32,000 nucleotides of DNA from Candidatus Pacearchaeota archaeon (GTDB lineage Archaea; Nanobdellota; Nanobdellia; Pacearchaeales; UBA284): the NCBI GenBank assembly GCA_026016245.1, contig CP061211.1, forward strand, positions 240,001-272,000, in the 5' to 3' direction. The translations under genes were made by a program, and so were the position numbers. A model generated the notes under the pieces. That model saw nothing but the letters and a program-made list of their open reading frames with translations, ran no database searches and was not told where the DNA came from. This document shows positions 6,551 to 30,383 of the stretch, piece after piece. Position 1 is the first letter of the stretch. Every line of letters starts with the position of its first letter.

Positions 6551-6551
6551 A

Positions 6552-7175
6552 ATGGTAGAAGAAAAACAAAAGAAATTCTACAAAAAGTGGGAAGATTATG
6601 CTTTAGCAGCTTATGCTCTACCTGCTTATATAAATGGAAAAGTTGGCCCACAACAGAGAACTGCTGCATGGGAACATTTGGAGAGAACTCGTGGTCTTGA
6701 AGGAATCTTAGATAAGGCTACAAGAGAGGGGATGTTTGATGTTAAGAAAGCTCTAGCAAGTGATGCTGAACAATATATGAAATACTTTGGAGAGCTAACT
6801 GTTCAAGAAGCTTTAGACCATGTAGCATCTAAGACAGGATATAAAGGGCAATTTTCTGAGATGTTAACACCATACTTAGACAAACAAATCAAAGATCTAC
6901 AAGAAAGTGCACAGAAATATGATGAAATAGAAAAGAAATTCCAGGAAGCAAAACAAAAATATGAACAAGGATTGATAACTGGAAAGGAATTTGATAAGAT
7001 AAGTGAGGAATATAGTGGAGCTATAAAGACACGTGGAAAAGATAGTGAAGCTCTTAAATTAGTAGGTAGTTATGATAGATTGAAGATAGAGCAGTATGTA
7101 TTGCCAATAATAACTAAGAAAGTTTATGAGATTGATCACAGAGAATACAAGGAATCAAGAGAAGGAGCTGCTTAA
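6552..7175 (+). CDS. Hypothetical helical protein (207 aa from MVEEKQKKFYKKW; ORF track start 6465)
   Basis: ORF track 6465..7175. The region upstream of Met30 is low-complexity and overlaps the better-placed small ORF. No family recognised. Confidence 0.6.
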   Translation: MVEEKQKKFYKKWEDYALAAYALPAYINGKVGPQQRTAAWEHLERTRGLEGILDKATREGMFDVKKALASDAEQYMKYFGELTVQEALDHVASKTGYKGQFSEMLTPYLDKQIKDLQESAQKYDEIEKKFQEAKQKYEQGLITGKEFDKISEEYSGAIKTRGKDSEALKLVGSYDRLKIEQYVLPIITKKVYEIDHREYKESREGAA

Positions 7176-15331: not shown

Positions 15332-15350
15332 ATATAAGATAGGGTCTAAG

Positions 15351-17414
15351 ATGACATATACTTTGATTATCGCAGAGAAACCAGCTGCTGCAATGCGAAT
15401 AGCTTATGCTCTCGCAGAGATTGCTCCTGTCAAGAGGAATATTGCTGGAGTGCCATTCTGGGAGATTAATAGAGGTAAGAAGAAATTCATTATAGTGAGT
15501 GCAGTGGGTCATTTGTTTGGCTTAGCTCAGAAGGGAACAAGCAAAGAGTGGCCTGTTTTTGATATTGAATGGCAAGCAAGTAAGGGTTTTGTTAGGAAAT
15601 ATATGAATGTTATCACGCATTTTGCCAAGGAAGCTGATAATTTCATTATTGCCTGTGATTATGATATTGAAGGCGAGCTTATTGGTTTTAATGCTCTCAG
15701 ATTTTTATGTAAAAAAGAAGACGCAAAAAGAATGAAATTCTCCACACTTACTAAGCCAGATCTAATCAAAAGTTATGAAGATATTATGGCTCATATAGAT
15801 TTTGGCCAGGTTTATGCTGGAGAAACCCGTCACTTTCTTGATTGGTATTATGGTATTAATTTAAGCAGGGCATTAATGCAGGCAATAAAAAAAGCTGGTT
15901 CATTTAGGATTCTTAGCATTGGTAGAGTTCAAGGACCTGCTTTAGCTTTGATTGTGGAAAAAGAAAAAAAGATTCAAGCATTCAAGCCAGAGCCTTATTG
16001 GCAAATTTTCCTTCTTGTGAAAAATAAACATGAAATTGAGGTTAAATATCCTAAAGATATTATAAAAGAAAAAGAACTTAAGATTTTTGAAAAATTAAAA
16101 GGAAAAACTGGAGAGGCTAGAACAACTAAAGAAGAAAAGAGCCTGAGACCTTTCCCGCCTTTTGATTTAACAAGTCTGCAGATAGAATCATACAAGTTTT
16201 TTGGCATAACTCCTGCACAAACCCTATCAATAGCACAAAAATTATATCTTCAAGGCCTGATTAGTTATCCAAGAACTAGCAGTCAGAAGTTGCCTTTTAC
16301 TATAGGATATAAAAGAATTTTAAATAAGTTAAACAGGCTTTTTCCTAAATTAACAGCTTATGCCAAGAGAGCCATGCCAATAGAAGGCAGAAAGACAGAT
16401 CCAGCACATCCTTCTATATTTCCTACAGGTGAAAAATCAAAAAAATTGAATCAAGCAGAAAAACAAGTTTATGATTTAATTGTTAAGAGATTTATTGCAT
16501 GCTTTTCTGAAGATGCTTTTATTGAGGAAAAGAAAATAAGTGTGAAGGTTGGAAAGCATGAATTTATTGTCCAAGGCAAGAAGATTCTGAAAAAAGAATG
16601 GTTAAATGTTTATCCAGCAAAAATTGATGTTAAGGAAATTCCTGATCTGGATGGCAAAGTAAAAGTTAAGGATGTGAGAATAGATGAAAAAGAAACACAG
16701 CCTCCAAGACGTTATAGTGCATCAAGTCTTGTCTATGAATTAGAGAAAAGAGGTTTAGGCACAAAAGGAACAAGAGCTATGATTGTTGATACGCTTTACA
16801 AAAGAGGCTATATAACAGGAAGACAGATTCAAGCAACAAAACTTGGAATGAATGTTGTTTCTGCCCTTGAAAAAAATAGCCCTTTGATTCTTGATGAAAA
16901 GCTGACAAGGAAATTTGAAGAAGAGATGGAAAAAATAAGAGGGGAAAAAACAAAAGAAAAAATAGTCAAAAAAGAAAAGAAAGTAATAGATGAAGCAAAA
17001 GATCTGTTAATAAAGATTTCAAAGCAATTTAAAGAGCATGAAAAGGAAATAGGAAAAGAGCTTCTTGCAGCACATAAAGAGATTGTAGAGGAACAAAGGA
17101 AAGCCAATACTTTATTCTTATGTCCTGTATGCAAGAAAGGTCATCTTGTTATGTTAAGGAGCAGAAGAGGCAAGAGATTTGCTGGTTGTGATGCTTACCC
17201 AAAATGTAAAAATACCTATGCTTTGCCACAATATGGCTTGATAAAATTAGCAGGTAAGAAATGTAAAGAATGTGACTTCCAACTTCTTCTGCTCATAAGG
17301 AAAAGTAAACCACCATGGGAATTTTGTTTTAATCCTGAATGTAAAACAAGAAAAGTAATAAAAAAAGTAAGGAGACAAAAACCAAAAGCCAGAAAGCCAA
17401 GAAAATTAAGTTAA
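15351..17414 (+). CDS. topA: DNA topoisomerase, type IA (TopA/Topo III-like) with C-terminal zinc ribbons
   Basis: Toprim signatures are TLIIAEKP and ACDYDIEGE. The active-site Tyr context is GLISYPRTSSQ. C-terminal zinc ribbons are CPVCKKG...CDAYPKCKN and CKECD...CFNPEC. The true start is MTYTLIIAEKP at 15351, because the track start 15258 overlaps gltX. Confidence 0.92.
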   Translation: MTYTLIIAEKPAAAMRIAYALAEIAPVKRNIAGVPFWEINRGKKKFIIVSAVGHLFGLAQKGTSKEWPVFDIEWQASKGFVRKYMNVITHFAKEADNFIIACDYDIEGELIGFNALRFLCKKEDAKRMKFSTLTKPDLIKSYEDIMAHIDFGQVYAGETRHFLDWYYGINLSRALMQAIKKAGSFRILSIGRVQGPALALIVEKEKKIQAFKPEPYWQIFLLVKNKHEIEVKYPKDIIKEKELKIFEKLKGKTGEARTTKEEKSLRPFPPFDLTSLQIESYKFFGITPAQTLSIAQKLYLQGLISYPRTSSQKLPFTIGYKRILNKLNRLFPKLTAYAKRAMPIEGRKTDPAHPSIFPTGEKSKKLNQAEKQVYDLIVKRFIACFSEDAFIEEKKISVKVGKHEFIVQGKKILKKEWLNVYPAKIDVKEIPDLDGKVKVKDVRIDEKETQPPRRYSASSLVYELEKRGLGTKGTRAMIVDTLYKRGYITGRQIQATKLGMNVVSALEKNSPLILDEKLTRKFEEEMEKIRGEKTKEKIVKKEKKVIDEAKDLLIKISKQFKEHEKEIGKELLAAHKEIVEEQRKANTLFLCPVCKKGHLVMLRSRRGKRFAGCDAYPKCKNTYALPQYGLIKLAGKKCKECDFQLLLLIRKSKPPWEFCFNPECKTRKVIKKVRRQKPKARKPRKLS

Positions 17415-18260
17415 TATGTGTTTTACATGATTACTTGTGCCTATAGGCACTTCTTTTTCAGGATAAACAATTATGCCTTTTTTTTGTTTTATTTCCATAG
17501 CAACAATTTTTCTCTTTATATTTTCACCCCTCATCTTTAAAATTTCTACTGCACTACCACGCCTGCCATTTCCATAAATTACATTATAAATTATTATGAT
17601 GCCATCTGAAAGAAAGCTTACAGCTTCAGCTCTTTCAACATAAACAGTTCCTATATGTGTTGGATTGCTTACCTCACGAATTAAAAAAGAGGTAATCTCT
17701 GTTTTTTCTAGATATCTAAACAACTGTTCCATATAAACCCTGAATCTTGCTTCTTCACCTGAAAAAGCAGAAGCAATAGATGTTAAGGAATCTATACAAA
17801 CAATATCTGGTTTAAAATCTGGGGGGAAAAATACTGGTTGTATATCAATAAGCAACTCTTTTTTAGCTTCGCTAAGCAAGGCTTCAACACTTCTTGAAAT
17901 ATCAAGGGCACTATATCTTTTTATCCTGAGCAAGTCCTTTTTCTCAAATTCATCTGGATGCCAACCAAAAGCACGCATATGTCTTCTTAATCTTGATTCT
18001 GGCTCTTCAAAACTCATATAAAGAACTTTTTTTCCTTGTTTGCAGGCATTATAAGCAAGTTGTAAACAAAAAATTGTTTTGCCACTACCAGGGCCACCTT
18101 CAACAAGAACGCTGCTACCAACAGGAACCCCTTTTTCTAAAAGTTTATCAAAACCCTGAATATTTGTTTTAAAATATTCCCTTGGCTTTAACTTTAATTC
18201 TCTAACTCTTTTAACAGCTTTAGCAGCTTTTTTCTTAGCTCTTCTTACCCCTTTTTTCAT
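17406..18260 (-). CDS. Single-domain KaiC/RecA-superfamily ATPase with basic N-terminal tail
   Basis: Walker A is VEGGPGSGKTIFCLQLA and Walker B-like is DIVCIDSL. The KaiC-like layout includes GFDKLLEKGVPVGSSVLV...YMSFEE. The N-terminus is MKKGVRRAKKKAAKAVKRVRE. Palindromic TTTATAAA (18283-18290) lies 22 nt upstream of the ATG at 18260. The stop overlaps the topA stop by 9 nt in convergent orientation. Confidence 0.8.
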   Translation of the reverse strand: MKKGVRRAKKKAAKAVKRVRELKLKPREYFKTNIQGFDKLLEKGVPVGSSVLVEGGPGSGKTIFCLQLAYNACKQGKKVLYMSFEEPESRLRRHMRAFGWHPDEFEKKDLLRIKRYSALDISRSVEALLSEAKKELLIDIQPVFFPPDFKPDIVCIDSLTSIASAFSGEEARFRVYMEQLFRYLEKTEITSFLIREVSNPTHIGTVYVERAEAVSFLSDGIIIIYNVIYGNGRRGSAVEILKMRGENIKRKIVAMEIKQKKGIIVYPEKEVPIGTSNHVKHILT

Positions 18261-18702: not shown

Positions 18703-21700
18703 ATGAGTAAGAAAAGAGGTGAAATGACAAGCCAGAGAGAAAACAAAAAGAGGATGAATAAAAAGAGTGAGTTGAAGAGAATTATATTGCTAATAGCTAT
18801 AAGTCTATTATTCACAGTGTTAATTGTTAGTGCTAATAATTTTACTAATATAACTAATTTTACTGATAATAATCAATCTAACCAAACTCTGGATTTAGAA
18901 TGTCAGCAAGATTCTGATTGTGATGATAATAATGAAAGTACATTTGATTATTGCACTAATAACTCTTGTTATTATCAAGAAATTGAATGTATAAATGATA
19001 GTAATTGTGATGATAATAATAGTTTGACTTTTGACTACTGTATAAACAATTCTTGTTATTATGTTGAACCAGAATGTTTTACTGATGAAGATTGCAATGA
19101 CAACAACGAATCAACCACAGATTTATGTCAAGATTATAATTGTATTTATGAGATTAATGAAACAAACATAACAGCAGAAATTCTTGAGCTTGAGCAACAA
19201 GAAGCTAAAATAAATGAGAAAGTTAAATGGATAGTAAAAATAAAAGCCCAAACTTTAGAAGAAGCTATATTATTAATTCCTGAAGATGCTTTTATTCTTT
19301 CATCTGAAGAACAAGAACAAGTTTTCTTGATTGAGTATGAAACTCCTATGATAGAAATAGAAGAAGAAATAATAGAGCAAGAACAAGAAATAAAAAAAGA
19401 TGAGATGACTGGTCAGGTTATTAGTCAGGCAATTCAAGGAAAAATAATAAAAAGAGTTATTATTAGTAGCAATTTCTCAGGTCATTATCATAATGTTAAG
19501 GCTTTTACAATTATTAATTTAGAAAATGAAATTCAAGAATCTCAGTTTAAGGTTTATCATCTTATTAGTAATGAAAAAGTTGATATTACAGATAAGTCAG
19601 AATATAATGTGACTATTAATAAGATTGAAGAAAATAACATCAATACTTCAACTAACTTATCAAATTATCAGATTTCTTGGCTAGTTCCTGAACTTAGTGA
19701 GCAGATTTTTGAGATAACTGCTGGTGGAGAAGGTCCAGTCATTCTCTCAACTCCTGGAGAAATAGATTCTTGTCAAACCTTAGATACAGCAGGAACATAT
19801 ACTTTAAACCAAAACGTTTCAGCAGATACTACTTGCTTTAACATAACCTCTGATAATGTTACTCTTGACTGTGCTGGTTATACTATAAATTATTCTGCTA
19901 CAGGAACTGGCTATGCTGTGAATAATTCTGTTGGTTATAGTAACATAACAATTAAAAATTGTTTTATAAACAATGTATCAACAAGTTATTCATCTAGTTA
20001 TGCTATATATTTCCAAGGCTCAAGCACAGACCCATGTTCAGGAAATGTTATAGATAATAACACTATTTTAACTTCAGGAACAAGCAGTCATGGGATTTAT
20101 TTATATGATTATGTGAACAAGACAAATATAACAAACAATAATATAACTACCACTGGGTCAAGCAGTAAGGGAATTTATTTAAATAGTAAAGTAAACAGCA
20201 GTATTATCGCCAATAACACATTAAAAACATCTCAAACCAGTTCTTATGGGATTGATGTTTATATGTATTCTGGGGAAAATATTATTTATAACAATAATAT
20301 AACAACAACTGGATCCGGCGGGTATGGAATGAGAATATATCAATATTGTGACAAAAATAATATAACAAACAATAATATAACCACCACAAGCACTGGAATT
20401 GGCATTTTTATGTATTCTGCTGATTTTAATAATATAAAAAATAATTCTTTTGTTACTGGAAGCAGTGGAGTATATGTGTATAATAGTGCAAGCAATGTTT
20501 TTTATAAGAATAATATAACAACTTCTGGCTCTGATAGCTATGGAATTTATCTTTATCAGTCTAGCACAAAATATAATAATTTTACAGATAACAGAATAAC
20601 TACTTCTGGAGCAAGTGCTCATGGGGTCTATGTTTCATCAGCAAATGATAATGCAATATTTAATTCATCAATTGAAACAACAAACACTGGAAATGCTATT
20701 TATTATGCTGGAGCCAGTAATGCGACAATAGAAAATACAGTTATAAATTCTACAAATGCTGGAACAAAGGACATTTACTTTGTAAGCTCAAGCAAAGGAA
20801 ACCTCAACTTGACAAACTGCACCCTAAACAAAACAGATGTCTCATTCCATTCAAGTTCAACAGCCAATCTAAATATCCATTATTATCTTGATGCTCAAGT
20901 TAATTACACAAACGGAAATCCAGTCCAAGATGCAAATGTAAGTGGTTATGATGTGGATAATGAGTTAGCTTTTACACAATTGACAGACAGTAATGGATTG
21001 ATAGCAAGACAAACTCTTCTTGAATACATGCAAAACTTTACAGATAAGTATTATAAAACAAAATATACAATTAATGCAACTTATCAAATAGGTTATACTA
21101 ATGATTCAGAGCAGGTTAATCTGACAGCAAACAATATAACAGATGATAATACTCAGATTATCTTGACTATTGGTACTACCTCTCCAACAACAAACTTAGT
21201 TTCTCCTGACAATGGAAATGTGAGTGATTTTTCCACGATTAATTTTACCTGCAATGCGACTGATGATTTAATGCTTAAAAATATATCTTTATGGCACAAC
21301 ATTACAGGAGCATGGGGTCTTAATCAAACTTTTTTTGGCTTAAATATTTCTTCTCAAACCTGTTCGCAGGTCTGGGGTTTTGACTGCGGTGCAGGACCTC
21401 CAGAAGCAGGAGACAACACATTTGATGATTGTACTTATAGTGGTTCAGGTGGTGGTCTTATTTCTGTTAAAGAAATCTATTTGAATGCAACAAAAATTGC
21501 TCCAGGAGATTCTTTGAATGCTACATGTTATTTTGAAAGTTATGAGGGTTATGAAGATGAATTTGATTCTGGGATATTCTATTACAATGGAAGTGGATGG
21601 TATGAATTATGGAGTGGAGACCCTTCTCCTTGCAGTGGACAGCCTTGTTATGTTAATACTTCAACAGCCTTTACAGCTAACAACACAGTAGGAACCCACT

Positions 21701-24700
21701 GGATAAGATGTTCAATCCAGTATACTGATGCAGGAACTGACATCACAGATTATTGTGCAGTAGGTGATGCTGGTTACCAAGACAATGATGACCTTAGTTT
21801 TACAGTATCTGACTCTATTGGCTCAGCAACTGCAACAGCTAGTTTTATCTTAAATGTTCCTGACGGCCATCATATCTGGAATTGTCAAGCTTATAACAAC
21901 AGAAGTAAGGATGATTTTGCTGATTCTAATTATACGTTGACTGTTCAAGAGCCCCCAAATGTTACTCTTAACCTGCCTGTTGACGGTAATTTAAGTGCAA
22001 GCAATAATATAACTTTCAATTGTTCAGCTACTGATAACAGTGGATTAAAAAATGTAACTCTCTGGGGAAATTGGAGTGGTGGATGGCATGCAAACACTAC
22101 AAATAATTTTTCAGGACTAAGTAACTCAACTGCTTTTAATTTAAATGTTTCAGAGGGTGCTTATTTATGGAATTGTTTAGTTTATGATATAAATGATTAC
22201 TCAGCTTTTGCCTCAAGTAATTTTAGTTTGACTGTAAATACTCCTCCAACAACTCCGACAAACATAACTTGTAATGGCCAGATTTGTTCTCTGAATAATT
22301 CTTTTAATAATATCATAGAAATAAATTGTTCTGGCTCAACTGATCCTAGTGGAGATGTTATTACCTATCTTATAGAAGCTAATTACACTTCTGGAGGAGC
22401 AGGAGATGCTGAGATTTCCCTTGGACCTTATGTGTATGAAAATACTGCTGGTCATGGAACACCTGTATGGTCAAGAAAATCAGAATGGGACCCTGTAACG
22501 TCCAGTTCATATTTTTATCCAACCTATGGTGATTTAGATGGAGACGGAGACTCTGACTTTATGTATGTTGCAAATAGCAATCAACTTAAAGCATATGAAA
22601 ATACTGGTTCTGCTGAAAGTCCTTCGTGGTCTTATAATGCTGGATGGAGTTTCTCAAATAGTGTTCCTACAGGAGAAGGAACAACAGTATTTAGTATAGA
22701 CCTTGGAGATGTTGAAGGTGACGGAGATTTAGATCTTTTATTTGCTAAACATAATAATATACTATTTTATGAAAATACAGCTGGAGCAGGTAATGACCCC
22801 TCCTGGAGTTATAATTCAGGCTGGACTGCAAGTCTTGGTAGTGCTACAAATATAGGAGCAAGGCTTGTTGATATTGATAATGACGGAGATATGGATATTT
22901 TCTACCATGATTGGAGTGGAAATAATTATTTCTATGAAAATACTGGCAGTCAAACTTGGTCAAGAAAATCAGAATGGGAAACTGGGTTTGTTAGTGGAGG
23001 GGCAAATTCACAATTTGGAGACTTTTATGATATTGATGGTGATGGGGATTATGATTATTTTGGTTATGAAAGCAGTTCTTATAAAGATGCTTATGAAAAT
23101 ACTGGGAGTGCATCTAGTCCTTCTTGGAGTGCTAATTCAGATTGGGGTTCAGCTATTCCAAGTTCATCAAGTTCTATTTATCCTGCTTTAGTTGACCTTG
23201 ATAATGATGGGAGTAGTTCTGGATGGCAGTTGATAGGAAATCATTCTGAAACATCTGTCTTTGAGTGGAGCATAACTGATGTGAATGAGCAGACAAATAT
23301 TAATCTAAGATGCAGGGCAGTTGACGAGCAAGGAAGTAATACTAATTCAAGTGCTTACAGTCCTGAGACTAATTTAACAATAGACCATACTGCACCTGTT
23401 TTTACTAATGTTAGTTACCAACCCAGTACAGACATTGGACTAGACCCTGATGTTCAGGTTAATGTTACTGTTAATGTAACTGACCCTGTTAATAATAATG
23501 TGAACAGCACAGTAAGTGCTGTTATATTACAATATAAGTCACAGTATGATTCTGACTTTAGTAATACAAGCATGAGTTATAATGTTTCTAATGAATTATA
23601 TGAAGGTAACTTTACTCCAAGTTTTGAGGCTAATTACACAATAAGAATATGGGCAAATGACTCTGCTCTTACATATGCTAACACTAATACCTCATCTAAT
23701 AGCACCTTAGAAATATTTTATGACTGGGTCTGGAATCACACACCTTATGACCTTGGAACAGTAGCAGGAATTCAAAAATCAACACAGACTGTGGGTTATA
23801 TTTATATAACTAACAATGCTGATTCTAATTTACATTATGACTTAAGTCATAATTATATTCTTGGAGCTGATTACATGAATTTCTCAGATGATTTGTTTAC
23901 TCTAACTCCTGGACAGAGCAAGAACATAACTGTAAACGCGACTTTTACTCCGGCAGCTGGTGAGTCTAATGTTAAAATAACAATAGATGCTACAACCCCT
24001 AATGCAGATCCTTCTGAAAATCATACTAATATCACTCTTGCTTCTTATGCAGGAGGCCCTTATTTAGATGTTGTGATAGATATTTATAATTCAATTATAG
24101 GACAAAGCAATTGGATGAATTTATCTGCTTACATTAGAAACATAGGTAATGAAACTTCACAAAACACAACCTATAACTGGACTCTTGCTAGTGGAATTAC
24201 AGTTAATAGTGGTGATAAAAATGCAGTTATAGGAAACATAACTCCAAATTCTCAGAACAGAACAAACTTGAATGTGACAGTAAGTGCCTCAACATCTTAT
24301 GGTAATAATAACATGAGTTTATTTGCTTCTGGCCAGGGTTCTAACACAAATGATACTAATCAGATAACTGTTTTTGTTCAGTGTAATTCAGGAGATGGTG
24401 TCTGCGGTGCAGGCTGTATAGATGCTGAAGGAGCACCTAACTATGATTCTGATTGTGTAGAACAGCCGTCTGGAGGCGGCGGAGGAGGCGGAGGAGTAAG
24501 TGGCCAAGCCAGAGAAAAATTCCTAACAACATCTGAAACAATAGAAATAGTAAGAGGCCAGACAACTGAATTTACTATTGAAGTAAAAAATGAATTTGAT
24601 GATGTTATAAAGGATATAACAATTGAGGTTGAAGGAATAATGTCAACTTATTTAAGTCTTTCACCTGCACATATAGATTCTCTTAATCCAGGAGAAAGCA

Positions 24701-25755
24701 AAGTTGTTATTGTCAAGCTAACATCTCCTAAATATTTCACAGCAGGAATATATGATCTTGTATTTAATATTAAAGGCCAGCTAGCAGTAGGAACAGCCTT
24801 TATTCAGATAAAAGAAAGAAGAATAGTAAATTTAATTGTTCATGAAATCAGCGAAGAAGAAGCAAGAGAAAAGCTTAATCAGGCTAAGAAAATACTAGAA
24901 CAAATGAAGCAATATAAATTAAAAACAGAAGAATTTGAAATCCTGTATGCAGAAATGGAAACAGCATTTAATAACAGAGAATTCACAAAAGTTAATAATC
25001 TTTACAATGAGTTTTATGATTCTTCTTCAATGGCAATAGAATCTTATAATCTCATTAATAAAATAAAACAAGCAATGGAGCAAGCAAATAGTAAGGGTAT
25101 TGAGACTCCAAACACCTTAAGGCTTGTTCAGTTAGCAGAATCAGCTTTAGAAAGAGCTGACTGGGAAACAGCTTTAAGCAGAGCAAAAGAAGCTGAACTT
25201 ACTTTTGCTGTAGAAACAAAAGGAGAATTTTCTTTAGGCTACTTTTTAAAAGAAAACTGGTGGAAAGTTTTAATTATGGTTTTATGTACTGGTTTTGTCG
25301 TCTTTTTAATTTATTCGTGGACAAAGTATGAAATAATTAACAAAAAAGTTAAAAATCTTGAAAGAGAAGAGCACATCCTTCTTGGTTTAATGAAAGTTGT
25401 TCAAAAAGATTGCTTTGAGCTAGGAAAAATGTCAATGACAGAATATCAAGTGGCAATTCAACAGTATGAAAACAAACTAAGCCAAGTTGTGCAAAGGTTA
25501 ATAGAACTAGAGACAATGAAAATTAACTTCTTTAAATTTAGAAAAGAAAATATAAGATTAAGCACAGAAAGAAAAAGACTGCTTGAATTGATAAAAGAAA
25601 CCCAAAGATTATATTTTGAGAAAGGCAAACTTGAATCAAGAATCTATGAAAACAAATTAAAGAGCTATGCGACCAAGATGATAGAGGTTGAAGAAAGGTT
25701 AGCATTACTTGAAGCTGAAAAAGCACTGAAAAGAACAAAGGTTTTGGAAAGATAA
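18703..25755 (+). CDS. Giant (2,350 aa) mosaic cell-surface glycoprotein with type-I membrane topology
   Basis: It is a single uninterrupted ORF. Domain order, part 1: N-terminal anchor/signal LKRIILLIAISLLFTVLIVSA; 3 Cys-repeats; parallel beta-helix coils; Ig-like modules. Part 2: five FG-GAP/VCBS blades; CARDB-like modules (RNIGNETSQNTTYNWTL; TTEFTIEVKNEFDDVIKDITIEVEG); a G8 tract. Part 3: helical stalk; TM WWKVLIMVLCTGFVVFLIYSW; 145-aa coiled-coil tail. N-x-S/T sequons are very dense. Confidence 0.9.
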   Translation: MSKKRGEMTSQRENKKRMNKKSELKRIILLIAISLLFTVLIVSANNFTNITNFTDNNQSNQTLDLECQQDSDCDDNNESTFDYCTNNSCYYQEIECINDSNCDDNNSLTFDYCINNSCYYVEPECFTDEDCNDNNESTTDLCQDYNCIYEINETNITAEILELEQQEAKINEKVKWIVKIKAQTLEEAILLIPEDAFILSSEEQEQVFLIEYETPMIEIEEEIIEQEQEIKKDEMTGQVISQAIQGKIIKRVIISSNFSGHYHNVKAFTIINLENEIQESQFKVYHLISNEKVDITDKSEYNVTINKIEENNINTSTNLSNYQISWLVPELSEQIFEITAGGEGPVILSTPGEIDSCQTLDTAGTYTLNQNVSADTTCFNITSDNVTLDCAGYTINYSATGTGYAVNNSVGYSNITIKNCFINNVSTSYSSSYAIYFQGSSTDPCSGNVIDNNTILTSGTSSHGIYLYDYVNKTNITNNNITTTGSSSKGIYLNSKVNSSIIANNTLKTSQTSSYGIDVYMYSGENIIYNNNITTTGSGGYGMRIYQYCDKNNITNNNITTTSTGIGIFMYSADFNNIKNNSFVTGSSGVYVYNSASNVFYKNNITTSGSDSYGIYLYQSSTKYNNFTDNRITTSGASAHGVYVSSANDNAIFNSSIETTNTGNAIYYAGASNATIENTVINSTNAGTKDIYFVSSSKGNLNLTNCTLNKTDVSFHSSSTANLNIHYYLDAQVNYTNGNPVQDANVSGYDVDNELAFTQLTDSNGLIARQTLLEYMQNFTDKYYKTKYTINATYQIGYTNDSEQVNLTANNITDDNTQIILTIGTTSPTTNLVSPDNGNVSDFSTINFTCNATDDLMLKNISLWHNITGAWGLNQTFFGLNISSQTCSQVWGFDCGAGPPEAGDNTFDDCTYSGSGGGLISVKEIYLNATKIAPGDSLNATCYFESYEGYEDEFDSGIFYYNGSGWYELWSGDPSPCSGQPCYVNTSTAFTANNTVGTHWIRCSIQYTDAGTDITDYCAVGDAGYQDNDDLSFTVSDSIGSATATASFILNVPDGHHIWNCQAYNNRSKDDFADSNYTLTVQEPPNVTLNLPVDGNLSASNNITFNCSATDNSGLKNVTLWGNWSGGWHANTTNNFSGLSNSTAFNLNVSEGAYLWNCLVYDINDYSAFASSNFSLTVNTPPTTPTNITCNGQICSLNNSFNNIIEINCSGSTDPSGDVITYLIEANYTSGGAGDAEISLGPYVYENTAGHGTPVWSRKSEWDPVTSSSYFYPTYGDLDGDGDSDFMYVANSNQLKAYENTGSAESPSWSYNAGWSFSNSVPTGEGTTVFSIDLGDVEGDGDLDLLFAKHNNILFYENTAGAGNDPSWSYNSGWTASLGSATNIGARLVDIDNDGDMDIFYHDWSGNNYFYENTGSQTWSRKSEWETGFVSGGANSQFGDFYDIDGDGDYDYFGYESSSYKDAYENTGSASSPSWSANSDWGSAIPSSSSSIYPALVDLDNDGSSSGWQLIGNHSETSVFEWSITDVNEQTNINLRCRAVDEQGSNTNSSAYSPETNLTIDHTAPVFTNVSYQPSTDIGLDPDVQVNVTVNVTDPVNNNVNSTVSAVILQYKSQYDSDFSNTSMSYNVSNELYEGNFTPSFEANYTIRIWANDSALTYANTNTSSNSTLEIFYDWVWNHTPYDLGTVAGIQKSTQTVGYIYITNNADSNLHYDLSHNYILGADYMNFSDDLFTLTPGQSKNITVNATFTPAAGESNVKITIDATTPNADPSENHTNITLASYAGGPYLDVVIDIYNSIIGQSNWMNLSAYIRNIGNETSQNTTYNWTLASGITVNSGDKNAVIGNITPNSQNRTNLNVTVSASTSYGNNNMSLFASGQGSNTNDTNQITVFVQCNSGDGVCGAGCIDAEGAPNYDSDCVEQPSGGGGGGGGVSGQAREKFLTTSETIEIVRGQTTEFTIEVKNEFDDVIKDITIEVEGIMSTYLSLSPAHIDSLNPGESKVVIVKLTSPKYFTAGIYDLVFNIKGQLAVGTAFIQIKERRIVNLIVHEISEEEAREKLNQAKKILEQMKQYKLKTEEFEILYAEMETAFNNREFTKVNNLYNEFYDSSSMAIESYNLINKIKQAMEQANSKGIETPNTLRLVQLAESALERADWETALSRAKEAELTFAVETKGEFSLGYFLKENWWKVLIMVLCTGFVVFLIYSWTKYEIINKKVKNLEREEHILLGLMKVVQKDCFELGKMSMTEYQVAIQQYENKLSQVVQRLIELETMKINFFKFRKENIRLSTERKRLLELIKETQRLYFEKGKLESRIYENKLKSYATKMIEVEERLALLEAEKALKRTKVLER
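18901..19161 (+). repeat. Three tandem 87-nt (29-aa) four-cysteine repeats inside the giant ORF
   Basis: The repeats are CQQDSDCDDNNESTFDYCTNNSCYYQEIE, CINDSNCDDNNSLTFDYCINNSCYYVEPE and CFTDEDCNDNNESTTDLCQDYNCIYEINE. All have C-x5-C-x10-C-x4-C spacing. TGT codons fall at 18901, 18988 and 19075. Confidence 0.9.
20041..20795 (+). repeat. About 10 parallel beta-helix (PbH1/CASH-like) coil repeats of 22-27 aa
   Basis: The motif recurs periodically: NITNNNITTTGSSSKGIYLNS, IIYNNNITTTGSGGYGMRIYQ, ITNNNITTTSTGIGIFMYS, FYKNNITTSGSDSYGIYLYQ, FTDNRITTSGASAHGVYVSS, IENTVINSTNAGTKDIYFVS. The DNA-level recurrence is aataatataac(a/t)ac. Confidence 0.8.
22432..23220 (+). repeat. Five FG-GAP/VCBS-type propeller blades (YENTG ... 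DxDxDGDxD)
   Basis: Five units each start with YENT(G/A). They end with Ca-binding-like loops GDLDGDGDSDF, GDVEGDGDLDLL, VDIDNDGDMDIF, YDIDGDGDYDYF and VDLDNDGSS. An internal (S)PSWS / WSRKSEW motif recurs. Confidence 0.8.
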
Positions 25756-25762
25756 GGAAAAG

Positions 25763-26728
25763 ATGGTAAAAAAAAATAATTTTATTATAATAATATTAAT
25801 GCTGTCGGCTTTATTAATAGCTAGTATATTTATCAATAATAATTTTGGTAATGCTGTTATATATTCAAATGAATCTATAGAAGCAAAAGAATCTCTTGAA
25901 AATGCAAGAGCTGATATGCAAGAAATGATTGAAATGGGTTTTAATGTTATTAGAGTTAATGACACTCTTATTGTGGCTGAACAAATTTATCTTGCACAGC
26001 TTGCTTTAGAAGAAAAAAAGAAAAGAGCTAATTATGAAACTGTTCTTGAAAAATGTGCTGAGATAAGGAAAATAAAAGAAAAGGCATTTCAAGCTTATGA
26101 TGAGCTTAAAGTTCTTGAAGTAAAAATTAATAAAACAACCCAAGACAAGGATGTTAATTTAACTGAAGTTATTGCTGTTTTTGAACAAGCAAAACAAGAA
26201 TTTATAGATGAGAGGTATGAGCAGTGTTTAATTTTAATTGAAAAAACTTATGAAAAAATTGATAGAGCAGAATCAGAAGCTGCCAGGTCAAGGGTGTTTT
26301 ATATAGCTGCAAGCCGCACAATAGGCGGGTTTTTTGAGAGAAATTGGAAAATAATTATAACTGTTTTGGCTGTAATAGGATTAGCATATTATATAACAAG
26401 AAAAAAAATTGAAAGATATTTATTAAGAAGGAAAATGAAAAAACTTGAGCTTGAAAAGAAAGTTTTAAGAGGGCTTATAGCAAAAACCCAAAAAGATTAT
26501 TTTGAAAAAGGGCTTCTTAGTGAGGGAAGCTATAGAATAAAAATAAAAAAATTCGGGGAACTTATCCGGGATATTGACAGACAAATTCCTTTAATAAAAG
26601 AAGAACTTGAAAAAATAAAAAAACAAAAGCCAGAAAAACAACCAAGAAGAATTCAAAAAGAAGTTAGAAGAATTTCTGTCCCTAAACCTCCTATTAAACC
26701 AAAAGCAAGAAAGAAAATTAAAAAATAA
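25763..26728 (+). CDS. Type-I membrane protein, paralog of the stalk-TM-tail region of the giant protein
   Basis: Layout is signal anchor FIIIILMLSALLIASIF, helical ectodomain, TM WKIIITVLAVIGLAYYI, then a charged tail. GGFFERNWKIIITVL aligns with GYFLKENWWKVLIMVL of the giant protein. The tail LRGLIAKTQKDYFEKGLLSEGSYRIKIKKF aligns with both tail motifs of the giant protein. It starts 7 nt after the giant ORF stop. Confidence 0.8.
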   Translation: MVKKNNFIIIILMLSALLIASIFINNNFGNAVIYSNESIEAKESLENARADMQEMIEMGFNVIRVNDTLIVAEQIYLAQLALEEKKKRANYETVLEKCAEIRKIKEKAFQAYDELKVLEVKINKTTQDKDVNLTEVIAVFEQAKQEFIDERYEQCLILIEKTYEKIDRAESEAARSRVFYIAASRTIGGFFERNWKIIITVLAVIGLAYYITRKKIERYLLRRKMKKLELEKKVLRGLIAKTQKDYFEKGLLSEGSYRIKIKKFGELIRDIDRQIPLIKEELEKIKKQKPEKQPRRIQKEVRRISVPKPPIKPKARKKIKK

Positions 26729-26729
26729 A

Positions 26730-27671
26730 TTACCTTACAAATATTACTTTTTCTGGTTTTGTAATCAATCCTTCTGACTCAGGGCATACAAAATAAACTC
26801 CCTGATTCAAGCCGTTCATACCTATCTTATCTGTTGATCTTAGTGTCTTTACTTTTCTTCCATACACATCAAAAAGATGTACTTTGTCAACTTTCCTGTT
26901 CAATCTTACTATATCTGTGGTAATATTTCCCTTTACTAGAGAAAATGGCTCTTTAACTCTGTTCTCAAGATCTTCTTTTACTCCAGTTAATTCAAAGACT
27001 AATGAATCAGCAATTAGTTGTGCATCTCCGAGTGCTTTATCAACTGTCCAATCAAGGTATTGCATAACAGGGCCTAATGTAAATTCTGATCTAATTGAAC
27101 CTTCTGGTTGTGGGTCTATGTTTTCAGCATTAAAAGCATGGTAAAAATGATTTCCTAGATTTACATTCAATTCAGAAGTGTCTTTCAAAGAAGGGTTTTT
27201 GAAATTATATGATATTACCCTAACTAAAGAATCTGTTGTTCCCATCTTGTTTATAATTTTTCCTATATTTGCTGCGTGCACTGGCAATGAATCATTAGGA
27301 TTGTTTAAGAATACTTCCCAAGCTCTTATAAATTCCTCATTATCAAAAGGAATCTTCGCAATTGTTTGATATATTTTGCCATCTCTATTTGCTTTTGCTA
27401 GATAATTAAGAGTGTCTCCTGGTCGTGGTTGATGAATTTGCCACTGACCATATGGAAGATGGCTTTTTCCTTCCTCATTAAATGTGCCTTGAGTATAATC
27501 AGGATATCCTGGTATCCAAAGTTTTGATGTATCTCCCTGAAGTGCTTGAACTGAATCTGTAGAAGGATTTGCATAGAATTCTAAAGCTCTAGTTCTTGGT
27601 TTATCAATTATTACTGGCATTGAAGGTTGACCACTTGTCGCCAGATATAAAATTATTTGACCAACTACCAT
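26730..27671 (-). CDS. Uncharacterised protein with C-terminal T9SS-type (Por_Secre_tail-like) beta-sandwich sorting-domain signature
   Basis: The C-terminus is VDKVHLFDVYGRKVKTLRSTDKIGMNGLNQGVYFVCPESEGLITKPEKVIFVR. This matches the pattern (v-x-iyD-x-x-GrkV ... l-x-x-L-x-x-GvYfv ... K-x-v) of Bacteroidota type-A CTDs. The N-terminal 240 aa are unrecognised. There is no clear signal peptide (MVVGQIILYLATSGQPS). Confidence 0.55.
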   Translation of the reverse strand: MVVGQIILYLATSGQPSMPVIIDKPRTRALEFYANPSTDSVQALQGDTSKLWIPGYPDYTQGTFNEEGKSHLPYGQWQIHQPRPGDTLNYLAKANRDGKIYQTIAKIPFDNEEFIRAWEVFLNNPNDSLPVHAANIGKIINKMGTTDSLVRVISYNFKNPSLKDTSELNVNLGNHFYHAFNAENIDPQPEGSIRSEFTLGPVMQYLDWTVDKALGDAQLIADSLVFELTGVKEDLENRVKEPFSLVKGNITTDIVRLNRKVDKVHLFDVYGRKVKTLRSTDKIGMNGLNQGVYFVCPESEGLITKPEKVIFVR

Positions 27672-28066: not shown

Positions 28067-28795
28067 TTAGAAGAATTTGAAGAATTTGCGCTTTTCTCCA
28101 AAAAGTCCTTTATTGGTTATCATGAAAACAAACTCTTTTTCAGGCAGACTTCTATGTTTTCTAAGGATGGCTTTTTTCCTGTTCTGGCCAAAATTCTGAA
28201 GTTCGATTATGCATTTGCTCCAATATTTCATTATATCCCCACCAACCATAGATACAGGTTTTGGTTTGCCTGCTTCAAAATCTTTTCTTGAGATGAATTC
28301 ACTATAGACTTGATCTGTTATTAAAACTGGAATTTGTTTTTTTCTTGCTATCTCACTAAGAATTCTCATCTGTCTAGCAAGGCTCCTGTTGATGATCATG
28401 ATTTTTTCCTTATCTTGCTCTTGATTTGCCTGTCCAAGTTCTAATCTGTATAACATGACCATACTATCTACTATAATTAAACCAATATCTTCTTTAATTA
28501 AATCAAGAAGTTTATTGAAAGCCTCGCGTTGTTCAGAAAAGTTTGTGGCCTTAAGAAGAAAAATATTTTTCATGATTTCTTCTGAAGTAAGCTGTTTTAG
28601 TCTATCTACAGAAAAGCCACCCTCTGTATCTATAAAAACAACTTTTTTTCCTTTAGCAGCTATTGATGCTGCTGCAAGAAGGCAAAGGTTGGTTTTTCCA
28701 CTACCAGCTGGTCCATAAAAAGTTGTTATGATATCCTTCTCATAACCTCCTGCAAGCCATTCATCTAAATTATGAGAGCCAGTTGATATTTTCAT
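28067..28795 (-). CDS. radB: DNA repair/recombination protein RadB (RecA/RadA paralog)
   Basis: MKISTGSHNLDEWLAGGYEKDIITTFYGPAGSGKTNLCL contains Walker A. VVFIDTEGGFSVDRLKQL and LIIVDS (Walker B) follow. At about 240 aa with no N-terminal HhH domain, it fits RadB rather than RadA. Confidence 0.88.
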   Translation of the reverse strand: MKISTGSHNLDEWLAGGYEKDIITTFYGPAGSGKTNLCLLAAASIAAKGKKVVFIDTEGGFSVDRLKQLTSEEIMKNIFLLKATNFSEQREAFNKLLDLIKEDIGLIIVDSMVMLYRLELGQANQEQDKEKIMIINRSLARQMRILSEIARKKQIPVLITDQVYSEFISRKDFEAGKPKPVSMVGGDIMKYWSKCIIELQNFGQNRKKAILRKHRSLPEKEFVFMITNKGLFGEKRKFFKFF

Positions 28796-29654: not shown

Positions 29655-30383
29655 ATGAATAAGAATATATTAAGAAAAATCGGCCTCACTGATTCAGAGC
29701 TAGAAATTTATCTTGATATTGTTAAGCATGGAGAAAGTCTTGCTTCTGAAATAGCTCCAAGAATAAAAATTTCAAGAACCTATATTTATGACTCCCTCCA
29801 AAATTTGATTAGTAAAGGTCTAATTGTTTATGTTATTAAAAATGGCCGACGATACTTCAAAGCTCTTGAGGTAGAAAAACTTCTTGAATATCTTGATGAA
29901 AAAAAGGAGGAAATAGAAAAGCAGAAGAAAGATGTTCTTGATTTAATCAAAGAGTTAAAGGTTTTTCAAAAACCTATTAGAGAAAAGCCAATTGTTGAGA
30001 TTTTTGAAGGAAAAGAAGGTTTAAAGACAATATTAAATGATATTGTTAAACAAGGTAAAGATATTGTTGCGTGGGGAGCAACAGATAGGATTAAAAATTA
30101 TCTACCAGAATGGTTTTTAGAAAGATATGTTAAAGAAAAAGTAAAAAAAAGAATTGAAACAAGACAATTTTATGTTGAAGGTGAAAAGACTTTAGAAGGG
30201 CCCGGTTATATTCTCAAAGCTGTTTCAAAAGAATTCTCAAATCCAGTAACTTTTGGGGCCTATGCTGATAGAATTATTATTTTCTTTTGGTCAGAAATTC
30301 CTATTATAATACGAGTCAAAAATAAAAACATAGCAAATTCTTTTAGAAAACATTTTGAATTTTTATGGAAAAAGATTAAATAA
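29655..30383 (+). CDS. TrmB-family transcriptional regulator
   Basis: LRKIGLTDSELEIYLDIVKHGESLASEIAPRIKISRTYIYDSLQNLISKGLIVYV is the canonical TrmB N-terminal wHTH. A coiled linker and a C-terminal effector-like domain follow. Confidence 0.85.
   Translation: MNKNILRKIGLTDSELEIYLDIVKHGESLASEIAPRIKISRTYIYDSLQNLISKGLIVYVIKNGRRYFKALEVEKLLEYLDEKKEEIEKQKKDVLDLIKELKVFQKPIREKPIVEIFEGKEGLKTILNDIVKQGKDIVAWGATDRIKNYLPEWFLERYVKEKVKKRIETRQFYVEGEKTLEGPGYILKAVSKEFSNPVTFGAYADRIIIFFWSEIPIIIRVKNKNIANSFRKHFEFLWKKIK

What the first reader, a model, noticed from the sequence alone, without database searches (positions are those of the whole stretch)
25180..26728. Conserved juxtamembrane + cytoplasmic tail motif present three times (twice in the giant protein, once in the paralog)
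Seen: three segments align column by column after the C-terminal TM helix. They are ILLGLMKVVQKDCFELGKMSMTEYQVAIQQY (giant, about 25375-25470), RLLELIKETQRLYFEKGKLESRIYENKLKSY (giant, about 25580-25675) and VLRGLIAKTQKDYFEKGLLSEGSYRIKIKKF (paralog, about 26465-26560). The invariant pattern is L-x2-L-x4-Q-x3-F-E-x-G-x6-Y-x6-[YF]. The pre-TM segments also align (GYFLKENWWKVLIMVL vs GGFFERNWKIIITVL). Inference: the helix-Gly-helix shape and size resemble the SHOCT short C-terminal oligomerisation domain. Here it appears to serve as a membrane-proximal cytoplasmic module. It could mediate homo- or hetero-oligomerisation between the giant protein and its short paralog, or dock an unknown cytoplasmic partner.
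Basis: partly seen in the sequence, partly recalled or inferred. Interest (0 to 1): 0.65.

Follow-up and report, generated by a model that had tools for sequence, protein, structure and literature searches.

The report
Shared membrane anchor of DPANN surface proteins
The repeated motif is real: it is a roughly 60-residue tail on the inner side of the membrane, shared by a giant, highly variable surface protein and its small neighbour in tiny symbiotic (DPANN) archaea, it is not a SHOCT domain, and it probably joins the two proteins and links them to a neighbouring KaiC-type ATPase.

Summary
The three segments lie where stated and are homologous (BLASTP E=3e-8, 7e-5 and 8e-7; class profiles 96-97% hhalign probability, reversed control 0.4%). 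Each belongs to a ~60-residue unit: helix A continuing from the TM helix, a short break, then helix B, both helices with heptad seams.

The short protein is a stand-alone paralogue of the giant's whole C-terminal module (five-helix ectodomain stalk, TM, tail; hhalign 99.4%, E=2e-21).

The pair is DPANN-wide. The tail profile finds 1299 protein clusters. In 27 of 31 informative loci a large protein with two tail units accompanies the short gene, directly upstream in 26. At least nine clusters are natural fusions, in both gene orders. A KaiC-type ATPase flanks the pair in 26-27 of 38 loci; no housekeeping family exceeds 5.

The SHOCT reading is not supported: no PF09851 hit, hhalign 0.3-2.3% (the same as reversed controls), and Gly in only 47 of 98 units.

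Best reading: a new, unannotated anchor and tail module that assembles giant and short chains and probably docks the ATPase. The docking step is inferred from synteny only.

The parts
17406..18260 (-). Single-domain KaiC-type ATPase (284 aa), divergent from the giant gene and 443 nt from its start. It is the candidate cytoplasmic partner.
   Evidence: PF06745 KaiC E=2.4e-47. Best PDB match is KaiC 8zn5, E=6e-40. It falls below every NCBIfam cutoff. Orthologues (E=1e-98 to 1e-125) flank the pair in 26-27 of 38 loci.
18703..25755 (+). Giant surface protein (2350 aa): N-terminal signal/TM, Cys-rich repeats, beta-helix, FG-GAP repeats, Ig/CARDB-like domains, then the conserved C-terminal anchor module.
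   Evidence: ORF and translation. Pfam hits: Beta_helix 2e-16, FG-GAP_3 1e-12, NPCBM_assoc 5e-5. There are 107 NxS/T sequons in the ectodomain and none in the tail.
24850..25230 (+). Five-helix extracellular stalk of the giant (aa 2050-2176), ending in LTFAVETKGEF.
   Evidence: AF2 helices 51-172 of the C-terminal 350 aa, pLDDT about 90-96. Aligns with the short protein's ectodomain (hhalign 99.4%). Conserved in the giants of other loci.
25258..25320 (+). TM helix of the giant (aa 2186-2206), preceded by the pre-TM motif GYFLKENW (nt 25237-25284).
   Evidence: Sequence. AF2 predicts one continuous helix 186-239 running from the TM into the tail.
25348..25536 (+). Tail unit 1 of the giant (aa 2216-2278): helix A, a break at GKMSM, helix B.
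   Evidence: Tail HMM E=1e-20 (this copy is in the profile). AF2 break at residues 240-244 of the model. Repeat-1 class signature Q.ecF..kKmSM.EY.
25549..25737 (+). Tail unit 2 of the giant (aa 2283-2345): helix A', a break at KGKLES, helix B'. It ends 5 residues before the C-terminus.
   Evidence: Tail HMM E=2e-18. AF2 H282-305, break 306-311, H312-349. Repeat-2 class signature Q.dY..kgklETR.yE with Glu29 in 30 of 30.
25763..26728 (+). Short paralogue (321 aa): signal/TM, five-helix ectodomain, TM, one tail unit, then a K/R/P-rich extension. It starts 7 nt after the giant's stop codon.
   Evidence: More than 120 homologues at E=1e-35 to 1e-90, all from DPANN MAGs, all 'hypothetical' and without Pfam domains. 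AF2 pLDDT 89.2, all-helical. hhalign to the giant C-terminal module 99.4%, E=1.7e-21.
26345..26398 (+). TM helix of the short protein (aa 195-212), preceded by GGFFERNW and followed by RKKIERYLLRRK (positive-inside).
   Evidence: Sequence. AF2 predicts one continuous helix 195-249.
26435..26623 (+). Tail unit of the short protein (aa 225-287): helix A to YFEK, a break at GLLS, helix B with ELIRDIDRQIPLIKEEL. This is the best-conserved part of the whole family.
   Evidence: Invariant in 38 of 38 short proteins: Q19, Y22, F23, L43, I44, D46, R49, Q50. AF2 H195-249, break 250-253, H254-287.
26624..26725 (+). Low-complexity K/R/P-rich C-terminal extension of the short protein, predicted disordered and not conserved.
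   Evidence: pLDDT 44-58 and no secondary structure. Variable or absent in homologues.

Best explanation
The three segments are copies of one cytoplasmic unit of about 60 residues. Helix A is the direct continuation of a TM helix, or follows the previous unit after 2-5 residues. A 4-6-residue break follows, then helix B. Both helices carry a regular 3-4 hydrophobic seam, and one flanking Gln is invariant.

The unit is the inner end of a larger conserved anchor module: five-helix extracellular stalk, TM helix, then tail. DPANN archaea encode this module twice in one operon. One copy is the C-terminus of a large, fast-evolving, heavily glycosylated surface protein, with the tail unit duplicated. 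The other is a stand-alone protein of about 290 aa with one tail unit.

Shown: homology of the three units; paralogy over the whole module; DPANN-wide conservation; operon structure; natural fusions; KaiC-type ATPase linkage; absence of any SHOCT signal.

Inferred: the two chains pair side by side through stalk, TM and tail, probably 1:1 as in the fusions. Their three hairpins then form a cytoplasmic helical platform. The giant's units keep mainly the seam and the Gln, which suggests a packing role. The short protein's unit carries an extra invariant charged motif (ELIRDIDRQ...E), which would serve as the docking site for a conserved cytoplasmic partner.

The best candidate partner is the KaiC-type ATPase encoded beside the pair. 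This would couple a variable outward-facing, probably host-contacting, ectodomain to an ATP-dependent or phospho-signalling component.

My confidence is about 0.8 for the anchor and hetero-association part and about 0.35 for the KaiC docking step.
For: Homology of the units.

Whole-module paralogy: (99.4%, E=1.7e-21, 212 columns), plus matching AF2 helix layouts.

The tail is the most conserved region of the short family.

Heptad seams occupy profile positions 1/4/11/14-15/18/22-23 and 28/33/37/40/44/47/51/54/58/61. Gln19 is present in 98 of 98 units.

Cytoplasmic location: positive-inside residues after the TM, and 107 (giant) and 4 (short) glycosylation sequons in the ectodomains against none in the tails.

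Spread: 1299 representative clusters at E<=1e-3 and 491 at E<=1e-10. Loci come from Aenigm-, Pace-, Woese-, Micr-, Nano-, Nanohalo- and Undinarchaeota.

Operon: 27 of 31 loci with upstream DNA carry a two-unit large protein, 26 of them directly upstream on the same strand, with gaps mostly -4 to +24 nt. Giants from other loci were not in the profile, yet both of their units are hit at E=1e-7 to 1e-12.

The ectodomains of those giants differ (beta-helix/FG-GAP, LamG, F5/8-C, Big_13), while the anchor is constant.

Fusions: P0121-P0125, P0239, P0244 and P0256 run giant then short; P0134 runs short then giant. All have three units and a TM in the right place for the topology.

KaiC linkage: 26-27 of 38 loci, always flanking the pair on one side or the other. 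The next families reach 12 loci (a small 2-TM protein lying between the short gene and the KaiC gene) and 5 or fewer loci for all housekeeping genes. Where the giant is missing (L001, L022, L027, L036), the short gene still sits beside the ATPase gene.
Against: There is no direct evidence for any physical contact. Only monomer AF2 models were available, and their pTM values (0.57 and 0.45) show that the mutual arrangement of stalk, TM and tail is not defined. Model coordinates could not be inspected, so the hairpin packing is inferred from the break and the heptad seams.

The KaiC link rests on synteny alone. Gene orientation varies: convergent, co-directional, or divergent as in the window. 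One well-covered locus (L007) has no KaiC gene within 10 kb.

Four loci have a short gene without an adjacent giant, so the short protein can presumably also act alone or with a giant encoded elsewhere.

Co-variation of the turn Gly between units (p=0.019) is driven by one clade.
Confidence: 0.6

Rival explanations
1. The tail is a divergent SHOCT domain (PF09851) used as a membrane-proximal oligomerisation module.
For: AF2 predicts two amphipathic helices separated by a short turn. hhalign picks the same 16-column register a human eye does: EKGLLSEGSYRIKIKK against DDGVISEEEFEAMKAK. Unit 2 of the giant lies at the extreme C-terminus.
Against: No PF09851 hit at E<=10 for the whole proteins, 22 isolated tails or the family consensus, while a SHOCT control peptide scores 50.7 bits.

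hhalign probabilities are 0.84% for the pooled tails and 2.3, 0.4 and 0.3% per class, against 0.2-0.4% for reversed controls.

The hallmark Gly is present in only 47 of 98 units. The unit's own invariant residues (Gln19, Tyr22/Phe23, ELIRDIDRQ) have no SHOCT counterpart. The unit is about 60 residues, not about 30 (PMC3581485).

None of the 120 listed family members carries a precomputed Pfam domain.
Confidence: 0.04
2. The similarity is chance resemblance among K/E-rich coiled coils and is not a real feature.
For: The tails are K/E-rich and helical with heptad periodicity. Weak Pfam noise hits go to coiled-coil families.
Against: Composition-adjusted BLASTP gives E=3e-8 to 8e-7. Reversed-sequence controls fall to 0.4% against 96-97% for the real comparisons. 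Position-specific invariants recur across 98 units from seven DPANN phyla. The genomic and architectural context is conserved.
Confidence: 0.01
3. The module is a self-contained envelope anchor, comparable to an S-layer large and small subunit pair. Stalks, TM helices and tails simply hold a surface lattice or adhesin in the membrane by homo- or hetero-oligomerisation. No cytoplasmic partner is involved, and the KaiC neighbour is regulatory or coincidental.
For: A large gene followed by a small gene in one operon, with a helical stalk and a single TM in the small one, recalls slaA/slaB. Makarova et al. describe a DPANN-specific secreted protein family 'next to S-layer-like proteins' (PMC6393860). 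Heptad seams would suffice for self-association. KaiC gene orientation is variable.
Against: The strongest purifying selection falls on the cytoplasmic tail, including surface-exposed charged invariants (D46, R49, Q50, E56) that a purely structural coiled coil would not need.

KaiC linkage (27 of 38 loci) is more than fivefold above any housekeeping neighbour (5 or fewer). In one clade the ATPase gene sits in the same operon, behind a small 2-TM protein.

The giant has no S-layer domain hit. The experimentally identified Micrarchaeon S-layer protein is a different protein of 101 kDa, with S-layer domains and no C-terminal TM reported (bioRxiv 10.1101/2021.04.28.441871), while a Micrarchaeota MAG also carries this pair (L012).
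Confidence: 0.25
4. The tail is a sorting or assembly signal. A cytoplasmic machine, possibly the KaiC-type ATPase, reads it to insert, position or turn over the giant protein. It would not be a permanent structural or signalling platform.
For: It has a fixed position directly after the TM at the C-terminus of proteins with otherwise unrelated ectodomains, as C-terminal sorting domains do. An ATPase is encoded next door.
Against: The short partner carries the best-conserved copy, yet has no cargo-like ectodomain variation. The unit is duplicated in giants and triplicated in fusions, which is unusual for a signal. There is no similarity to known archaeal sorting signals, and no archaeosortase or related gene appears in the neighbourhoods.
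Confidence: 0.1

Closest known systems
SHOCT domain (Pfam PF09851; Eberhardt et al. 2013, PMC3581485)
   Same: A short two-helix amphipathic unit with a turn that often contains Gly, followed by h-h-[ST]-x3-[FY]. It often lies at the C-terminus and sometimes after TM segments.
   Different: No HMM or profile-profile signal. The unit is twice as long. The Gly is dispensable. The invariant residues are different. It is restricted to DPANN surface-protein anchors. SHOCT's own function is unknown, and oligomerisation was not supported experimentally.
DPANN 'dark matter' cluster cls.004306 (NEQ255) of Makarova, Wolf and Koonin 2019 (PMC6393860)
   Same: DPANN-specific, predicted secreted, 'often encoded next to arCOG02487 ... 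S-layer-like proteins', and still called enigmatic. This description fits the short protein and its giant neighbour.
   Different: Identity with NEQ255 could not be verified here. That paper lists no tail module, no paralogy with the neighbour's C-terminus, no fusions and no KaiC linkage.
Sulfolobales S-layer pair SlaA/SlaB
   Same: A large surface protein gene followed by a small one in an operon. The small protein has a signal peptide, a helical stalk and one C-terminal TM helix.
   Different: Here both proteins have their own TM helix and conserved cytoplasmic tails, and they are paralogous in the anchor. There is no sequence or fold match to SlaB. SlaB has essentially no cytoplasmic domain (own knowledge).
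Integrin alpha/beta heterodimers (functional analogy only)
   Same: Two single-pass chains, one with FG-GAP repeats in a large ectodomain, pair through stalk, TM and short conserved cytoplasmic tails that recruit cytoplasmic factors. This is from my own knowledge of integrins.
   Different: There is no homology. The tail here is a 60-residue helical hairpin, duplicated in one chain. The organism is archaeal. The candidate partner is a KaiC-type ATPase.
Giant SPEARE-type surface proteins of nanohaloarchaea (PMC10266531)
   Same: Very large, membrane-anchored, Ig- or lectin-rich DPANN surface proteins implicated in host interaction, with an ATPase gene adjacent.
   Different: SPEARE proteins are 5-9 thousand residues long and carry a VirB4/TraG-like ATPase domain, with a VirB4-like neighbour. 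Nothing reported for them corresponds to the stalk-TM-tail module, the short paralogue or a KaiC-type neighbour.
KaiC-like ATPases docking to membrane machines (ArlH of the archaellum; 'signal-transduction hub' proposal of Makarova et al. 2017)
   Same: A single-domain KaiC-family ATPase encoded beside membrane proteins. The neighbour here scores E=6e-14 on the ArlH model and E=2e-47 on PF06745.
   Different: It falls below every curated cutoff, including ArlH. No archaellum or pilus genes are in the neighbourhood. The 2017 paper could not be read here.

Membership tests
SHOCT (PF09851) | Matches the Pfam SHOCT HMM at or above the gathering score (27 bits) | tested here: not met
   No hit at E<=10 for either whole protein, both isolated tails, 22 family tails or the family consensus. 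A typed SHOCT consensus scored 50.7 bits as positive control.
SHOCT (PF09851) | Profile-profile similarity to an alignment of SHOCT domains | tested here: not met
   hhalign 0.84% for pooled tails and 2.3, 0.4 and 0.3% per class, against 0.2-0.4% for reversed controls. The SHOCT alignment was small: 6 real plasmid sequences plus 1 consensus.
SHOCT (PF09851) | Strongly conserved Gly between the two helices (PMC3581485) | tested here: not met
   Gly in 25 of 38 short units, 5 of 30 repeat-1 units and 17 of 30 repeat-2 units. It is replaced by K, N, R or S.
SHOCT (PF09851) | Strongly conserved Glu six residues after the Gly, in a domain of about 30 residues without indels | tested here: not met
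   Glu at that column is conserved only in repeat 1 (SM.EY) and is variable in the short protein and in repeat 2. The conserved unit is about 60 residues.
SHOCT (PF09851) | Two amphipathic helices joined by a short turn | tested here: met
   AF2 predicts helix-break-helix in all three units, with pLDDT about 85-97. Heptad seams are present on both helices.
SHOCT (PF09851) | Lies within 50 residues of the C-terminus | tested here: inconclusive
   Unit 2 of the giant ends 5 residues, and the short protein's unit 34 residues, before the C-terminus. Unit 1 does not, and in fusion proteins the units are internal.
cls.004306 / NEQ255 cluster (PMC6393860) | Restricted to DPANN archaea | tested here: met
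   All named hits and 31 of 33 genome loci are labelled as DPANN lineages or as unclassified archaeon MAGs. The 'Babeliales' contig and the 'Heimdallarchaeota' fragment are probably mis-binned.
cls.004306 / NEQ255 cluster (PMC6393860) | Predicted secreted protein encoded next to S-layer-like, Ig-domain surface proteins (arCOG02487) | tested here: met
   N-terminal signal/TM in the short protein. A large CARDB- or Ig-containing surface protein accompanies it in 27 of 31 loci, directly upstream in 26.
cls.004306 / NEQ255 cluster (PMC6393860) | Sequence homology to Nanoarchaeum equitans NEQ255 | not testable with these tools
   The NEQ255 sequence could not be obtained. The paper's supplement does not list the members.
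SlaA/SlaB-type S-layer pair | Small subunit related in sequence or fold to SlaB | tested here: not met
   No PDB sequence hit below E=0.1, and no Foldseek hit below E=0.05.
SlaA/SlaB-type S-layer pair | Large subunit has no membrane anchor of its own and is held by the small one | tested here: not met
   The giant has its own TM helix plus two cytoplasmic tail units.
KaiC family (PF06745), for the neighbouring gene only | Matches the Pfam KaiC model above its cutoff, with a P-loop | tested here: met
   161.7 bits against a cutoff of 26.6. GPGSGKT motif present. Best PDB hits are KaiC structures.

The most novel reading that the evidence does not exclude
DPANN archaea share one two-chain transmembrane coupling device. 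A hypervariable, glycosylated ectodomain for host contact is interchangeable on a constant stalk-TM-tail anchor. It pairs with a small invariant paralogue, and their three cytoplasmic hairpins recruit a dedicated KaiC-type ATPase. Contact at the surface is then converted into an ATP-dependent or phosphorylation signal inside the cell, or the ATPase controls the adhesin from inside. This would be an archaeal, integrin-like signalling apparatus built from a domain with no known relatives.
Probability: 0.25. Interest if true: 0.85.

Novelty: new variant of a known kind. Interest (0 to 1): 0.62.

Why it matters
How DPANN archaea recognise, hold and communicate with their hosts is an open question. 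The large surface proteins thought to be responsible are so variable that they offer no common handle.

This analysis identifies a constant part that many of these proteins share: a stalk-TM-tail anchor, a small obligatory-looking partner, and a dedicated KaiC-type ATPase next door. The module is found across seven DPANN lineages and is missing from domain databases.

It gives three practical things:
- a sequence profile that finds candidate host-interaction proteins whatever their ectodomain;
- a defined protein-protein hypothesis (short-protein tail to ATPase) that can be tested with recombinant fragments from uncultivated organisms;
- a probable functional context for a protein family previously listed only as 'enigmatic' dark matter.

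Tried and rejected
- Pfam and NCBIfam scans of whole proteins and isolated tails gave only noise: Exonuc_VII_L, Nup54, WHD_MCM8, and a below-cutoff Cap12 hit.
- PDB sequence searches with the tail, short-family and giant-module profiles found nothing below E=0.07.
- Foldseek against the PDB with both AF2 models found only generic long-helix or designed-repeat matches, E>=0.05. The one domain-level hit, the Borrelia BB0323 N-domain against the ectodomain, is not significant at E=0.4.
- The SHOCT relationship was tested four ways and rejected.
- The homology search with the giant's C-terminus returned only 6 fragments because of the word index. The exhaustive profile search and the locus scan were far more informative.
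- Identity with NEQ255/cls.004306 could not be checked.
- The KaiC 'signal hub' paper is not held.
- I considered that the giant is the DPANN S-layer protein. No S-layer domains are detected, and the experimentally identified Micrarchaeon S-layer protein is a different protein.
- I considered SPEARE-type giants. Their architecture and their ATPase are different.
- Gly co-variation among the units of one genome was examined as a hint of co-packing. It is too confounded by phylogeny to use.

Full report
**The observation.** The window encodes a 2350-aa protein (18703-25755, + strand). Seven bases after its stop codon a 321-aa protein begins (25763-26728). BLASTP with composition adjustment aligns the giant's last 350 residues with the short protein over 163 residues covering pre-TM, TM and tail (E=3e-8). 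It aligns the giant's second repeat with the short tail at E=7e-5, and the two repeats of the giant with each other at E=8e-7.

**What the unit is.** The short protein has more than 120 homologues (E=1e-35 to 1e-90). All come from DPANN metagenome-assembled genomes, all are 'hypothetical', and none has a Pfam domain. In an alignment of 28 of them the cytoplasmic tail is the best-conserved region, with consensus LKxLIxKTQKDYFExGxISEGxYxIKxKKFAELIRDIDRQIPLLKEEL.

I built a 63-column tail profile and aligned 38 short-protein units, 30 giant repeat-1 units and 30 giant repeat-2 units from 38 loci to it. One Gln is invariant in all 98 units. L4, L14, Y/F33 and Y/F40 are nearly invariant. Each class also has its own signature:
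- short protein: Y22, F23, L43, I44, D46, R49 and Q50, each in 38 of 38;
- repeat 1: Q.ecF..kKmSM.EY;
- repeat 2: Q.dY..kgklETR.yE.

Hydrophobic positions follow a clean 3-4 spacing on both sides of the turn. The three classes match each other at 95.9-97.3% hhalign probability, against 0.4% for a reversed control.

AlphaFold2 models are confident: pLDDT 89.2 for the short protein and 86.5 for the giant's last 350 residues. In each unit helix A is a continuous extension of the TM helix or follows the previous unit. A break of 4-6 residues follows at the G-x-x-S position, then helix B. The unit starts 0-10 residues after a TM helix, and unit 2 follows unit 1 after 2-5 residues. Positive charges after the TM helix, together with 107 (giant) and 4 (short) glycosylation sequons in the ectodomains against none in the tails, place the tail in the cytoplasm.

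**The paralogy covers the whole module.** Both AF2 models show the same five-helix ectodomain in front of the TM helix. A profile-profile comparison of the short family with the giants' C-termini gives 99.4% probability (E=1.7e-21) over 212 columns, from the first ectodomain helix to the tail. The short protein is therefore a stand-alone copy of the giant's entire C-terminal anchor module. The similarity is not limited to a shared motif.

**Distribution and context.** An exhaustive profile search of 1.84 billion representative proteins finds 1299 clusters at E<=1e-3 and 491 at E<=1e-10. Most are proteins of about 290 aa with one unit, or large proteins with two. A scan of species-representative genomes returned 33 loci from Aenigm-, Pace-, Woese-, Micr-, Nano-, Nanohalo- and Undinarchaeota.

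The analysis covered 38 non-redundant loci, and 31 of them have upstream sequence available. In 27 of those 31, a large protein with two tail units accompanies the short gene. In 26 it lies directly upstream on the same strand, usually overlapping by 4 nt or separated by fewer than 25 nt. These giants were not in the profile, yet both of their units are detected. Their ectodomains differ (beta-helix/FG-GAP here; LamG, F5/8-type C or Big_13 elsewhere), while the stalk-TM-tail-tail end is constant.

At least nine representative clusters are natural fusions with three units. Eight run giant then short and one runs short then giant. Each has a TM helix where the topology requires one. Fusions in both gene orders are classical evidence that two proteins act together.

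**The neighbour.** A single-domain KaiC-family ATPase lies divergently upstream of the giant in the window (17406-18260; PF06745 E=2e-47). Its orthologues (E=1e-98 to 1e-125) flank the pair in 26-27 of 38 loci. They sit either directly after the short gene or directly before the giant, and several of the remaining contigs are truncated.

I clustered all ORFs of the loci. The next most frequent neighbour family occurs in 12 loci. It is a small 2-TM protein that lies between the short gene and the KaiC gene, which puts the ATPase in the same operon in that clade. No housekeeping family exceeds 5 loci. Where no giant is adjacent (L001, L022, L027, L036), the short gene still sits beside the ATPase gene. 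The linkage is therefore specific, but it remains synteny only.

**The SHOCT hypothesis.** PF09851 gives no hit at E<=10 for the proteins, for 22 isolated tails or for the family consensus, whereas a SHOCT consensus peptide scores 50.7 bits. I collected six real SHOCT domains from annotated plasmid genes and compared profiles. The probability is 0.84% for pooled tails and 2.3, 0.4 and 0.3% per class, indistinguishable from reversed controls at 0.2-0.4%. The only alignment found is a 16-column stretch around the turn.

SHOCT is defined by a strongly conserved Gly and Glu in an indel-free domain of about 30 residues (PMC3581485). Here the Gly is present in 47 of 98 units and is absent from all three units in a whole clade. 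The Glu is conserved only in repeat 1, and the unit is about 60 residues. I therefore do not file it as SHOCT. The helix-turn-helix shape is shared, which is a statement about shape only. The SHOCT paper also reports that its own experiment did not support oligomerisation.

**Other comparisons.** No sequence or fold relative exists in the PDB.

[quoted passage not shown] S-layer-like proteins', and call it enigmatic (PMC6393860; PMC5898192). The description fits the short protein, but I could not obtain NEQ255 to verify this.

The giant is unlikely to be the S-layer protein itself. It has no S-layer domains. The S-layer protein identified experimentally in Ca. Micrarchaeum harzensis is a different protein of 101 kDa, while Micrarchaeota also carry this pair (L012). 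The SPEARE giants of nanohaloarchaea have a different architecture and a VirB4-type ATPase.

**Mechanism.** The following are shown: three homologous cytoplasmic helix-break-helix units with heptad seams; module-wide paralogy; operon arrangement; fusions; and specific KaiC linkage.

The following are inferred. The giant and short chains pair through stalk, TM and tail. The giant's units, which keep mostly the seam and the Gln, would serve packing. The short protein's extra invariant charged motif (ELIRDIDRQ...E) would be a docking surface for a conserved cytoplasmic partner, most plausibly the adjacent KaiC-type ATPase.

I put about 0.8 on the anchor and hetero-association part and about 0.35 on KaiC docking. 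The main rival, at 0.25, is a purely structural envelope anchor without a cytoplasmic partner.

**Limits.** Only monomer models were available, and their coordinates could not be inspected. The pTM values are 0.45-0.57. No multimer prediction could be run and there are no experimental data.

**Verdict.** The feature is real, conserved and unannotated. It is best described as a new domain and module within a familiar class: single-pass surface proteins with a small partner and conserved cytoplasmic tails.

Noticed in passing
L001:10910-11359, L029:10744-11169, L022:3247-3756 and 9 further loci; no copy in the window: A third linked family of about 141-232 aa, with an N-terminal cytoplasmic helical domain (FLSxDLxERMIRVEQRV...Y.KTEYY) followed by two TM helices. 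It lies directly between the short gene and the KaiC-type ATPase gene in 12-14 of 38 loci, so it may be a further component of the system in one clade.
   Followed up: partly
L007:432-4999: A diversity-generating retroelement cassette (913-aa beta-helix/FGE-sulfatase target protein, bAvd, reverse transcriptase) lies about 1 kb upstream of the LamG-type giant that carries the two tail units in a Woesearchaeota contig.
   Followed up: no
L003:10981-12000 (- strand); also P0123 and P0124: Some giants continue beyond tail unit 2 with a further TM helix and a Cys-rich extracellular segment, or with several extra TM helices. The tail is therefore not always C-terminal.
   Followed up: partly
window 26730-27671 (- strand): A 313-aa ORF convergent with the short gene has a weak, below-cutoff match to the T9SS/Por C-terminal sorting domain (E=5e-4 on Pfam, 7e-4 on NCBIfam). 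This is odd for an archaeon and may simply reflect a beta-sandwich C-terminus.
   Followed up: no
window 18901-19149 and 24472-24495: The giant's N-terminus carries three Cys-rich repeats of about 27 aa (C..DSDCDDNN..T.DYC.NNSCYY), with a weak Dicty_CTDC match. A run of eight Gly precedes the last Ig/CARDB-like domain.
   Followed up: no
L018 (JAIPGS010000062.1, labelled Candidatus Babeliales bacterium) and P0259 (MCE7739897.1, labelled Candidatus Heimdallarchaeota): Two carriers of the module are labelled as non-DPANN. L018 has the same gene order as the DPANN locus L005 (KaiC-type ATPase gene, giant, short), and P0259 is 49% identical to the window's giant C-terminus, so both are probably mis-binned DPANN sequences.
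   Followed up: partly
window 28067-28795 (-), 29655-30383 (+) and 15258-17414 (+); L001: A RadB/Rad51-like ATPase, a TrmB-family regulator and a topoisomerase lie near the cluster in the window, and all three families also occur in L001. Each recurs in only 3 of 38 loci overall, so this is local synteny between relatives, not part of the system.
   Followed up: yes
window 6465-7175 (+ strand): A 236-aa ORF contains a SHOCT-looking stretch (YEQGLITGKEFDKISEEY) but gives no Pfam hit at E<=0.01. It shows how easily this short pattern arises.
   Followed up: partly
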